The position numbers and the translations under genes were made by a program. Positions 16,774 to 16,880 of a DNA stretch of 64,000 bases are shown here, one piece after another. Under the pieces are notes generated by a model. The model saw only the letters and a list, made by a program, of their open reading frames with translations, searched no databases and had not been told where the DNA came from. Within the stretch, counting starts at the first letter, position 1; the number at the start of each line of letters is the position of its first letter. Origin of the DNA: Escherichia coli (GTDB lineage Bacteria; Pseudomonadota; Gammaproteobacteria; Enterobacterales; Enterobacteriaceae); assembly GCF_045037415.1 (NCBI RefSeq), contig NZ_CP173438.1. The stretch is one strand, 5' to 3'.

Positions 16774-16880
16774 TACAATGCGGGCGAAAAATAAGGATGC
16801 CCCGTTAGGGGCGTTAGCTGAGTTTTTCGCGAAAAATTCAGCTAACGCTCTCTGTAATAGTCAAATCCAGGGGATTTACC

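What the first reader, a model, noticed from the sequence alone, without database searches (positions are those of the whole stretch)
16811..16848. 38 nt near-perfect palindrome in the purH 5' leader, separate from the pur box
GCGTTAGCTGAGTTTTTCGCGAAAAATTCAGCTAACGC is self-complementary except for one G/T position, which would be a G-U pair in RNA. It sits between the PurR operator (16758-16773) and the purH ATG (16881). It could form a long hairpin in the purHD leader (an attenuator or stability element) or act as a dyad operator for a second regulator. It is not explained by the PurR box, and I am not aware of a characterised element with this sequence.
Basis: seen in the sequence. Interest (0 to 1): 0.4.

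Follow-up and report, generated by a model that had tools for sequence, protein, structure and literature searches.

The report
Conserved RNA hairpin in purHD leader
The 38-base palindrome upstream of the E. coli purine gene purH is real and is the DNA copy of an RNA stem-loop in the mRNA leader; the stem-loop is conserved across enteric bacteria, absent from RNA-family databases, and has no known function.

Summary
Window 16811-16848 is a 38-nt palindrome with one G/T position, and it is the best short-loop inverted repeat in the 64 kb window. The window is E. coli. The element lies between the PurR box/-10 hexamer and the purH ATG, and is near-invariant in about 5,400 E. coli genomes.

Orthologous purH leaders from 33 Enterobacterales species keep the two arms, but the DNA between them varies from 0 to 64 nt. 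Ten of 17 stem pairs show compensatory changes. G.U pairs outnumber A.C pairs 40 to 14 on the purH sense strand.

This pattern fits an RNA stem-loop (P2) in the roughly 95-nt purHD 5' UTR. It argues against a fixed-spacing dyad operator. P2 lacks a U-tract, so an intrinsic attenuator is unlikely. It is single-copy and matches no Rfam family.

The foot of the stem (GGGGCGUUA...UAACGCUCU) is conserved beyond what pairing requires. It shares its G-run with a small upstream hairpin (P1), whose C-run can pair with the Shine-Dalgarno sequence.

My best reading is a cis-acting post-transcriptional element, either read by a factor or acting as a conformational gate on translation or stability. A passive stabilising hairpin is the main rival. 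The function is inferred, not shown. Vibrionaceae purH leaders carry an unrelated hairpin at the same position.

The parts
16758..16773 (.). PurR operator (pur box) GCGCAAACGTTTTCGT. This is context and not part of the hairpin.
   Evidence: Sequence. It matches the published purHD PurR site ACGAAAACGTTTGCGC on the opposite strand, 108-123 nt upstream of the ATG. It is conserved in nearly all Enterobacterales loci examined.
16774..16787 (+). -10 hexamer TACAAT (16774-16779), GC-rich discriminator GCGGGCG, and the predicted transcription start at about G16786/A16787.
   Evidence: TACAAT/TAAAAT directly follows the pur box in all 40 loci that have a pur box. The start site is inferred from hexamer spacing and was not verified in any dataset.
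16799..16812 (+). P1, a small GC hairpin GCCCC-GUUA-GGGGC. Its G-run and final C (16808-16812) are shared with the foot of extended P2.
   Evidence: It folds at -10.0 kcal/mol. A local hairpin is retained with different sequences in relatives: CCUC/GAGG in L015, CAUG/CAUG in L018, CCCG/CGGG in Yersinia and CCGG/CCGG in Rahnella.
16811..16848 (+). P2, the reported palindrome. It is a 17-bp stem plus CGCG loop, with a G16822.U16837 wobble.
   Evidence: Covariation: 88.6% of cells paired, against 26-40% in slid controls; 10 of 17 pairs have double changes; 0 of 500 shuffles reach the observed score. The covariance model gives 99.6 bits on the + strand and 37.6 bits on the - strand, and there is a single locus in the window.
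16808..16851 (+). Possible extended P2 (about 20-22 bp), in which GGGGC 16808-12 pairs with GCUCU 16847-51 (two G.U pairs). This is mutually exclusive with P1.
   Evidence: RNAalifold consensus. Pair probabilities are 0.38-0.66 for the extension and 0.09-0.11 for P1 at equilibrium. GGG and GCUCU are retained in Rahnella, where P1 uses other bases. The columns are invariant, so there is no covariation test.
16848..16853 (+). Invariant pyrimidine tract CUCUCU immediately 3' of the stem. GCUCU is present in 32 of 35 aligned species sequences.
   Evidence: It resembles the start of boxA but fails the consensus GYTCTTTAANA at positions 6, 8 and 9.
16863..16877 (+). P3, a small hairpin AAAUCC-AGG-GGAUUU that covers the Shine-Dalgarno sequence GGGGA (16870-16874).
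   Evidence: It folds at -2.7 kcal/mol alone and has pair probability about 0.46 in the leader. It is conserved in core Enterobacteriaceae, where only the loop base varies. It is absent in Erwiniaceae and Yersiniaceae.
16881..18470 (+). purH coding sequence (529 aa), followed by purD starting at 18470.
   Evidence: ORF list. RefSeq annotation of identical E. coli loci.

Best explanation
The palindrome is the DNA image of an RNA stem-loop (P2, 17 bp, extendable to about 22 bp) in the roughly 95-nt 5' untranslated leader of the purHD mRNA. It acts in cis at the RNA level, downstream of and independently of PurR repression at the promoter.

Shown: the structure is conserved by compensatory change across Enterobacteriaceae, Erwiniaceae and Yersiniaceae. 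The apex is free to grow by up to 64 nt. The foot of the helix and its 3' flank (GGGGCGUUA...UAACGCUCU) are conserved in sequence beyond what pairing requires. A C at stem position 8 is retained even where it is mismatched.

Inferred: the helix is a scaffold whose foot is the functional site. Either a trans-acting RNA-binding factor reads it, or it toggles with the adjacent hairpin P1 for the shared G-run. When the foot takes the G-run, P1's C-run (16800-16803) is free to pair with the Shine-Dalgarno G-run (16870-16873). When P1 forms, the Shine-Dalgarno sequence is released. The expected output is control of purHD translation and, secondarily, of mRNA lifetime.

My estimates: about 0.9 that the RNA hairpin is real and selected; about 0.4 that it is a sequence-read or switching regulatory element rather than a passive one.
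For: The element lies downstream of a -10 hexamer fused to the pur box in every locus that has a pur box. Stem covariation: 10 of 17 pairs have changes on both sides, the covariation score is 0.291 against 0.150 in shuffles (0 of 500 reach it), and slid controls pair only 26-40%. G.U outnumbers A.C 40 to 14 on the sense strand, and the + strand fold is 3.9 kcal/mol more stable than the - strand fold. The spacer between arms ranges from 0 to 64 nt. Stem positions 3-6, 9 and 11 are at least 94% identical in 33 species, while positions 7 and 12-17 covary; C8 is present in 32 of 33 species although mismatched in 17. Erwiniaceae keep the 5'-arm consensus despite two mismatches. The RNAalifold consensus pairs CCCC with the Shine-Dalgarno GGGG and extends P2 with GGG:UCU. 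The alternative states lie within about 3 kcal/mol of each other: -39.8, -37.8 and MFE -41.0. The 66-nt region is at least 99% identical in 5381 of 5419 E. coli genomes, whereas only 3613 reach that level over the 361-nt intergenic query. In O157 the sequence diverges just upstream of the promoter but not within the leader. An unrelated hairpin of the same design sits 28-41 nt upstream of purH in Vibrionaceae, Grimontia and Oceanisphaera.
Against: There is no experimental datum on the transcription start, on RNA structure in vivo, or on any effect on expression. No trans-acting factor has been identified. The GGGG:CUCU and CCCC:Shine-Dalgarno pairings rest on invariant columns, so they have no covariation support, and G-rich Shine-Dalgarno sequences are trivially complementary to any C-run. 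L018 lacks the C-run and Rahnella's P1 uses other bases. Equilibrium folding predicts the Shine-Dalgarno sequence mostly paired in all states, so a clean on/off switch is not evident. The register of the arms in my alignment was chosen by maximising pairing, which inflates the paired percentages. Species are phylogenetically related, so shuffle statistics overstate significance. Several Enterobacterales (Photorhabdus, Edwardsiella, Budvicia, Rosenbergiella) and Pasteurellaceae lack the element, so it is dispensable for purH expression as such.
Confidence: 0.4

Rival explanations
1. P2 (with P1) is a passive structural element. Under this reading it is simply a very stable obstacle in the 5' UTR. 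It would impede 5'-end-dependent RNase E scanning and Rho loading on the untranslated leader. It would also insulate the ribosome-binding site from upstream sequence, setting a constitutive mRNA half-life and translation level with no regulatory input.
For: The helix is very stable, at -22.5 kcal/mol. The apex is free to vary and elongate. Unrelated sequences form a comparable hairpin at the same distance from the ATG in Vibrionaceae and in Mangrovibacter and Acerihabitans, which suggests that structure rather than sequence is what is selected. The two-hairpin 5' UTR layout resembles the ompA stabiliser (established knowledge).
Against: The foot and the 3' GCUCU are conserved in sequence across families although other leader segments are not. 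5'-arm bases are retained even where mismatched. The first hairpin starts about 13 nt from the predicted 5' end, so it does not cap the 5' terminus as classical stabilisers do.
Confidence: 0.3
2. P2 is an RNase III processing site, of the kind found in the rnc and pnp leaders. Cleavage within the roughly 20-bp helix would remove the 5' part of the leader and so change purHD mRNA stability or translation.
For: In E. coli the helix is an uninterrupted duplex of 17-22 bp, about two helical turns. That is the canonical substrate geometry (established knowledge; rules summarised).
Against: Seventeen of 33 species carry a C.C or C.U mismatch at stem position 8, and Erwiniaceae add a G.G mismatch at position 10. 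One RNase III mapping study reports only the rrsE-leader site in the purH-rrsE spacer, although the supplementary file was cut when stored. The second study does not mention purH in its main text and its supplements are not held. The strict sequence conservation of the foot is not expected from RNase III's weak sequence preferences.
Confidence: 0.12
3. P2 is a transcription attenuator. Under this reading it would be a leaky intrinsic terminator in the leader, whose efficiency sets how much transcription reaches purH.
For: A long hairpin with three G-C pairs at its base is followed by a pyrimidine-rich tract. In Yersiniaceae and Erwiniaceae the tract is U-richer, for example CUCUUUAUU and CUCUUAUUUAUUU.
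Against: In E. coli the tail is UCUCUGUAAU, and the scan finds no + strand terminator-like site at P2. No alternative antiterminator exists, because P1 overlaps P2 by only 2 nt. The held Term-seq supplements list no purH 3' end. The Vibrio-type hairpin is often followed by non-U sequence.
Confidence: 0.06
4. The palindrome acts at the DNA level. It would be a dyad operator for a second regulator (for example RbsR or PhoP, both reported for purHD, or an unknown factor), or a cruciform extruded under the negative supercoiling generated by the divergent rrnE promoters.
For: The dyad is perfect and has an A/T-rich centre. The outer GCTGA...TCAGC resembles Cra/LacI-family half-sites. RbsR and PhoP are listed as purHD regulators. 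The element lies about 260 bp from rrnE P1.
Against: The spacing between the conserved arms ranges from 0 to 64 nt in orthologues, which is incompatible with a dimer on fixed half-sites. Substitutions are strand-asymmetric, with G.U 40 against A.C 14. The centre TTTCG|CGAAA is everted relative to the RbsR/PurR core AAACG|CGTTT, whereas the pur box itself fits a LacI-family site. No PhoP direct repeat is present. Vibrio purH leaders carry an analogous hairpin without an adjacent rrn operon.
Confidence: 0.05
5. The element is a nut-like Nus-factor site. Under this reading P2 would be a boxB-type hairpin followed by a boxA (GCUCU...) that binds NusB/NusE, as in rrn leaders and suhB.
For: GCUCU immediately follows the stem in 32 of 35 aligned species sequences. 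Serratia and Rahnella have GCUCUUUA, Pantoea has the lambda-like CGCUCUUA, and Brenneria has GUUCUUUAAUG. The order (hairpin, then boxA) is the rrn order (established knowledge).
Against: The E. coli and core Enterobacteriaceae sequence GCUCUCUGUAA misses the consensus GYTCTTTAANA at positions 6, 8 and 9, and T6C is half of the loss-of-function double mutation in suhB. The first two or more bases of the motif are paired in P2. purH is not mentioned in the Nus-target study's main text; its supplementary list of putative BoxA genes was not checked.
Confidence: 0.04

Closest known systems
ompA-type 5' UTR stabilising hairpins / obstacles to RNase E scanning
   Same: Both have stable hairpins in a long enterobacterial 5' UTR upstream of the ribosome-binding site. 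Both are conserved as structure among Enterobacteriaceae and act in cis on mRNA fate.
   Different: Here the first hairpin is not at the extreme 5' end. The foot of the long helix is conserved in sequence across families. No half-life data exist for purHD.
RNase III-processed leader hairpins (rnc, pnp, adhE leaders)
   Same: In E. coli there is a duplex of about 20 bp within a 5' UTR, upstream of the start codon.
   Different: Half of the orthologues carry internal mismatches. The datasets I could read report no rnc-dependent end in this hairpin.
ZTP (pfl) riboswitch upstream of purH in many other bacteria
   Same: Both are structured RNAs in the purH leader, and both could give pathway-specific post-transcriptional control on top of promoter control.
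   Different: There is no sequence or structural match (no Rfam hit). The E. coli helix is perfect and has no internal loop that could hold a ligand. No ligand link has been shown.
Anti-SD / anti-anti-SD translational switches (e.g. pyrC leader hairpin, RNA thermometers)
   Same: A C-run, a competing G-run and the Shine-Dalgarno G-run are arranged so that two mutually exclusive pairings are possible.
   Different: No trigger is known. The pairings are invariant, so they are untested by covariation. The predicted energies do not give a clear two-state system.
rrn / lambda nut sites (boxB hairpin + boxA)
   Same: A hairpin is followed by GCUCU-initiated pyrimidine sequence, and several Yersiniaceae and Erwiniaceae match the boxA core.
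   Different: The E. coli sequence fails the boxA consensus at critical positions, and part of the motif is base-paired.
PurR / RbsR LacI-family operators
   Same: All are palindromic DNA in the purHD control region.
   Different: This palindrome is 38 bp against 16 bp for the operators. The arm spacing varies among species and the core is everted. The genuine operator is the pur box 38 nt upstream.

Membership tests
Conserved cis-acting 5' UTR RNA structure | Lies within the transcript, downstream of the promoter and upstream of the start codon | tested here: inconclusive
   In every locus that has a pur box, the pur box and TACAAT lie upstream of the hairpin, and the predicted start is about 16786. 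No TSS dataset could be read. From memory only, a 1990 primer-extension study placed dyad symmetries in the mRNA 5' end; this is unverified.
Conserved cis-acting 5' UTR RNA structure | Base pairs maintained by compensatory substitutions | tested here: met
   Ten of 17 pairs have changes on both sides. 88.6% of cells are paired against 26-40% in slid controls, and 0 of 500 shuffles reach the observed values.
Conserved cis-acting 5' UTR RNA structure | Strand-specific signal (G.U tolerated on the sense strand) | tested here: met
   G.U 40 against A.C 14 over 17 pairs in 33 species. Fold energy is -22.5 kcal/mol on the + strand and -18.6 on the - strand.
Intrinsic terminator / attenuator | U-tract immediately 3' of a GC-rich stem | tested here: not met
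   The tail is UCUCUGUAAU, and there is no + strand terminator-like site at P2.
Intrinsic terminator / attenuator | Competing antiterminator structure and leader-length 3' ends | tested here: not met
   P1 overlaps P2 by only 2 nt. The held Term-seq supplements list no purH 3' end (this is weak negative evidence).
Dyad DNA operator (LacI-family or other dimeric regulator) | Fixed spacing of half-sites among orthologous sites | tested here: not met
   There are 0 to 64 nt between the conserved arms.
RNase III substrate hairpin | About two turns of uninterrupted dsRNA | tested here: inconclusive
   Met in E. coli, with 17-22 bp. Interrupted at stem position 8 in 17 of 33 species and also at position 10 in Erwiniaceae.
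RNase III substrate hairpin | rnc-dependent cleavage in vivo | not testable with these tools
   The literature I could read lists only the rrsE-leader site in this spacer. The other dataset's supplements are not held.
NusB/E boxA (nut-like site) | Match to gamma-proteobacterial consensus GYTCTTTAANA | tested here: not met
   The E. coli sequence GCTCTCTGTAA differs at positions 6, 8 and 9, and T6C is part of a loss-of-function mutant (sequence).
Known Rfam families including ZTP/pfl riboswitch | Covariance-model match | tested here: not met
   The only hit is a chance mir-725 match, at 23.8 bits against a gathering score of 76. Thirteen related loci also give no hit in the leader.
Repetitive palindromic elements (REP/ERIC/MITE) | Multiple dispersed copies per genome | tested here: not met
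   There is a single locus per E. coli genome; the two BLAST 'places' per genome are the palindrome matching itself on both strands. The window has a single site.
tRNA or tRNA-like gene | Cloverleaf detected | tested here: not met
   ARAGORN finds nothing in 16600-17000.

The most novel reading that the evidence does not exclude
The conserved foot of P2, together with P1, could be the operator of a purine-pathway riboregulator. Under this reading a protein would bind the helix foot and gate the Shine-Dalgarno sequence. The protein might be PurH itself, which a 2026 preprint recovered among RNA-associated proteins in E. coli. It might instead be another factor that senses AICAR/ZMP or the folate state. 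Enterobacterales would then have a PurR-independent translational feedback on purHD. This would be the functional counterpart of the ZTP riboswitch that they lack, with an independently evolved equivalent hairpin in Vibrionaceae.
Probability: 0.08. Interest if true: 0.75.

Novelty: new member of a known kind. Interest (0 to 1): 0.45.

Why it matters
purHD is a textbook PurR-regulated operon in the best-studied bacterium, yet its leader carries a strongly selected RNA structure that no database annotates and no study I could find explains. If the hairpin modulates translation or mRNA decay, purine synthesis in enteric bacteria has a second, post-transcriptional control layer at the AICAR-to-IMP step. 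That is the step where other bacteria use the ZTP riboswitch. An analogous but unrelated hairpin in Vibrionaceae suggests a general requirement of purH leaders. The element is small, single-copy and easy to mutate, so the question can be tested directly.

Tried and rejected
- **Rfam:** scans of the window region and of 13 related loci gave no family.
- **tRNA-likeness:** the segment GGGGCGUUAGCUGAG resembles a tRNA 5' half, but ARAGORN is negative, so I treat the resemblance as chance.
- **Repeat family (REP/ERIC/MITE):** the element is single-copy.
- **boxA/nut site:** rejected for E. coli on the published consensus.
- **RbsR or PhoP operator:** the half-site order is everted, there is no PhoP repeat, and the arm spacing varies.
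- **Integron attC-like site:** the GTTAGC...GCTAAC polarity is opposite to R''/R', and the locus is a syntenic housekeeping leader. This rests on inspection only.
- **Leader peptide:** the only candidate, AUG 16797 (M-P-R-stop), has no usable Shine-Dalgarno spacing and is not conserved.
- **Antisense-strand terminator:** on the - strand, P1' plus AUCCUUAUUUUU is flagged by the scan. However, the U-tract is 4-8 nt from the stem and nothing is known to be transcribed toward it.
- **CsrA site:** AUAAGGAUG (16791-16799) loses its GGA in several species, and a literature search on purH, CsrA and CLIP-seq found nothing.
- **Alternative long-range partners of the arms:** only duplexes of -6 to -11 kcal/mol with purH codons 11-16, far weaker than P2.
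- **NsrP sRNA:** it targets the purD start, not this leader.
- **Literature hunts that found nothing usable:** TSS tables, Term-seq 3' ends, RNase III sites, and the original 1989/1990 sequence papers, which are not held.

Full report
**Observation.** Window 16811-16848 reads GCGTTAGCTGAGTTTTTCGCGAAAAATTCAGCTAACGC. The repeat finder gives 19-nt arms with 95% complementarity and no spacer. The single exception is G16822 opposite T16837, which is a G.U pair in the + strand RNA. The palindrome is the best short-loop inverted repeat in the whole 64 kb window. Its pattern is expected 0.00 times in shuffles. As RNA it folds at -22.5 kcal/mol, with z = -6.6.

**Context.** The window is E. coli: it is 100% identical to strain SK1144, and 5,418 of 5,426 complete genomes carry the locus. 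Upstream on the minus strand lie the 16S rRNA gene, the leader and the P2 promoter of an rrn operon, which I identify from memory as rrnE. PurR binding at this pur box is published. TACAAT (16774-16779) directly abuts the pur box and is followed by a GC-rich discriminator. This predicts a start near G16786 and a leader of about 95 nt in which the palindrome occupies roughly +26 to +63. I could not find a TSS table that lists purH, and the 1989/1990 sequence papers are not held. The start site is therefore inferred. From memory only, the 1990 purHD paper noted dyad symmetries at the mRNA 5' end; I could not verify this.

**Conservation within E. coli.** K-12, O157 and a strain with an IS3 inserted upstream are identical from about 16745 to the ATG, whereas O157 diverges sharply just upstream of that point. 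A 66-nt query around the hairpin is at least 99% identical in 5,381 of 5,419 genomes. Only 3,613 reach that level for the 361-nt intergenic query. The element is single-copy: the two BLAST 'places' per genome are the palindrome matching itself on both strands.

**Comparative analysis.** A scan of one genome per species with the PurH N-terminus returned 80 loci.
- In nearly all Enterobacterales, the pur box and TACAAT precede the leader.
- The two arms (consensus GCGUUAnCUGA ... UCAnnUAACGCUCU) are present in Enterobacteriaceae, Erwiniaceae, Yersiniaceae and Brenneria.
- The sequence between the arms ranges from 0 nt to 64 nt. This alone is hard to reconcile with a dimeric protein on fixed DNA half-sites.
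- On a 33-species alignment of the arms, the named structure pairs 88.6% of cells, against 26-40% when the partner is slid by 1-3 columns.
- Ten of 17 pairs show changes on both sides, and no shuffle of 500 reaches the observed covariation. Position 7 alone runs through G-C, C-G, U-A and U.G.
- G.U pairs outnumber A.C pairs 40 to 14, and the sense-strand fold is 3.9 kcal/mol better than the antisense fold. Selection therefore acts on the purH-sense RNA.
- Caveats: I chose the arm register by maximising pairing, and the species are related, so the statistics are generous.
- A covariance model built from 13 Enterobacteriaceae finds one + strand site in the window (99.6 bits). It also finds the purH leaders of Pantoea, Erwinia and Yersinia, and nothing in Vibrio or Pasteurellaceae.

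**Anatomy beyond the palindrome.**
- *P1.* Immediately 5' lies a small GC hairpin, P1 (16799-16812, -10 kcal/mol). In relatives it is retained as a hairpin with different sequences.
- *Extended P2.* P1's G-run (16808-16811) can instead pair with the invariant CUCU that follows P2, extending P2 to about 22 bp. RNAalifold prefers this state and then pairs P1's freed C-run with the Shine-Dalgarno G-run at 16870-16873. Forced-state energies lie within about 3 kcal/mol of each other.
- *P3.* A weak local hairpin, P3 (16863-16877), also covers the Shine-Dalgarno sequence in core Enterobacteriaceae.
- *Status of these pairings.* They involve invariant columns, so covariation cannot test them.
- *Sequence conservation of the foot.* What is clear is that the foot of P2 is conserved in sequence beyond pairing needs. 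Positions 3-6, 9 and 11 are at least 94% identical. C8 is kept in 32 of 33 species although it is mismatched in 17. Erwiniaceae keep the 5'-arm consensus despite two mismatches.

**What it is not.**
- No Rfam family matches, including ZTP.
- No tRNA is detected.
- It is not a repeat family.
- It is not a canonical terminator. The tail is UCUCUGUAAU, there is no + strand terminator-like call, and the held Term-seq supplements list no purH 3' end.
- The GCUCU tail recalls boxA, and several Yersiniaceae and Erwiniaceae match its core. However, the E. coli sequence fails the consensus GYTCTTTAANA at positions 6, 8 and 9, including a position whose change helps inactivate the suhB boxA.
- Known extra regulators of purHD are RbsR and PhoP. 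The RbsR/LacI-type core fits the pur box, not the everted centre of this palindrome.
- RNase III is plausible for the perfect E. coli helix, but internal mismatches are common in relatives. The one mapping study I could search reports only the rrsE-leader site in this spacer.

**Mechanism.**
- *Shown:* a selected sense-strand RNA stem-loop lies in the region between the promoter and the purH start codon. It has a sequence-constrained foot and a free apex.
- *Inferred:* it acts post-transcriptionally in cis.
- I put about 0.4 on a sequence-read or switching element. In that reading, a factor binds the foot, or competition between the foot and P1 gates the Shine-Dalgarno sequence.
- I put about 0.3 on a passive stabiliser or insulator, about 0.12 on RNase III processing, and 0.06 or less each on attenuation, a DNA operator or cruciform, and a Nus site.
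- The arm-swap experiment described under next steps separates the first two.

**Wider pattern.** purH leaders of Vibrio, Photobacterium, Grimontia and Oceanisphaera carry an unrelated long hairpin (AAAGGUCUUUACCAAAA...UUUUGGCAAAUAUCUUU and variants, including a CC/GG swap in Grimontia). It lies 28-41 nt upstream of the ATG, compared with 32 nt in E. coli. It again has a conserved foot and a variable apex and has no Rfam match. Aliivibrio shows related arms by eye, but the automated scans picked other hairpins there. Aeromonas has a related hairpin about 86-93 nt upstream. Pasteurellaceae leaders are short and unstructured. This suggests a recurrent need for such a structure in front of purH, but I only partly followed it up.

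**Verdict.** It is nevertheless an ordinary kind of object, a 5' UTR hairpin, whose function remains unknown. Interest is moderate.

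Noticed in passing
L043, L045, L049, L051, L054, L056, L058, L060, L061, L063, L066, L072, L073 (about 30-110 nt upstream of purH): Vibrionaceae, Grimontia and Oceanisphaera purH leaders carry a different long hairpin (AAAGGUCUUUACCAAAA...UUUUGGCAAAUAUCUUU and variants). Its foot is conserved, its apex is variable (span 38-102 nt), and it sits 28-41 nt from the ATG. It has the same design as the E. coli element but an unrelated sequence, and no Rfam hit. Aeromonas has a related hairpin further upstream.
   Followed up: partly
window 16663-16671: A perfect DnaA-box consensus, TTATCCACA, lies in the spacer between the rrn operon and purH.
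   Followed up: no
window 16780-16786: A GC-rich discriminator (GCGGGCG) lies between the -10 hexamer and the predicted start of purHD. It is conserved as GC-rich in relatives. This is the signature of promoters that ppGpp/DksA regulate negatively.
   Followed up: no
window 16791-16799: AUAAGGAUG lies just 5' of P1 and resembles the CsrA SELEX motif (RUACARGGAUGU). It reads ACAAGGAUG in Citrobacter, Kluyvera and Pseudocitrobacter, but the GGA is lost in Phytobacter, Citrobacter FP75 and Klebsiella BIGb0407.
   Followed up: partly
L033-L039, L027, L028, L031 (apex of the hairpin): In Yersiniaceae and Erwiniaceae the apex insert is itself a hairpin with a polypyrimidine 5' side, a UAUA-type loop and a polypurine, Shine-Dalgarno-like 3' side. 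Examples are CUUCUCUAUAUAGAGAGAAG, and GAAGGAGGG in Y. thracica. Serratia has it duplicated.
   Followed up: no
window about 16700-16745 versus L002 (O157:H7): O157 differs at many positions just upstream of the purH promoter but is identical from about 16745 onward. This marks a sharp boundary of divergence, possibly from recombination, at the edge of the control region.
   Followed up: no
L003 (strain EP91B), about 70 nt upstream of the pur box: An IS3-family element is inserted between the rrn side and the purH promoter. The pur box, hairpin and purH remain intact.
   Followed up: no
window 16386-16619 (- strand); also L031, L041, L030: Sub-threshold Rfam hits to Ysr197 (118 bits against a gathering score of 167) cover the rrn promoter and leader region. 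That 'Yersinia sRNA' family therefore appears to model an rRNA operon leader. The rrn boxA (CTGCTCTTTA, minus strand) is at about 16400-16409.
   Followed up: no
L040 (Photorhabdus caribbeanensis), purH leader: An ERIC-like imperfect palindrome is inserted in the purH leader in place of the conserved hairpin. The related L042 lacks it.
   Followed up: no
window 16803-16817: In E. coli, CGTTAG occurs twice in direct repeat (16803-08 and 12-17) and once inverted (CTAACG, 16842-47). The first copy is the P1 loop and is not conserved in other genera, so this is probably coincidental.
   Followed up: partly
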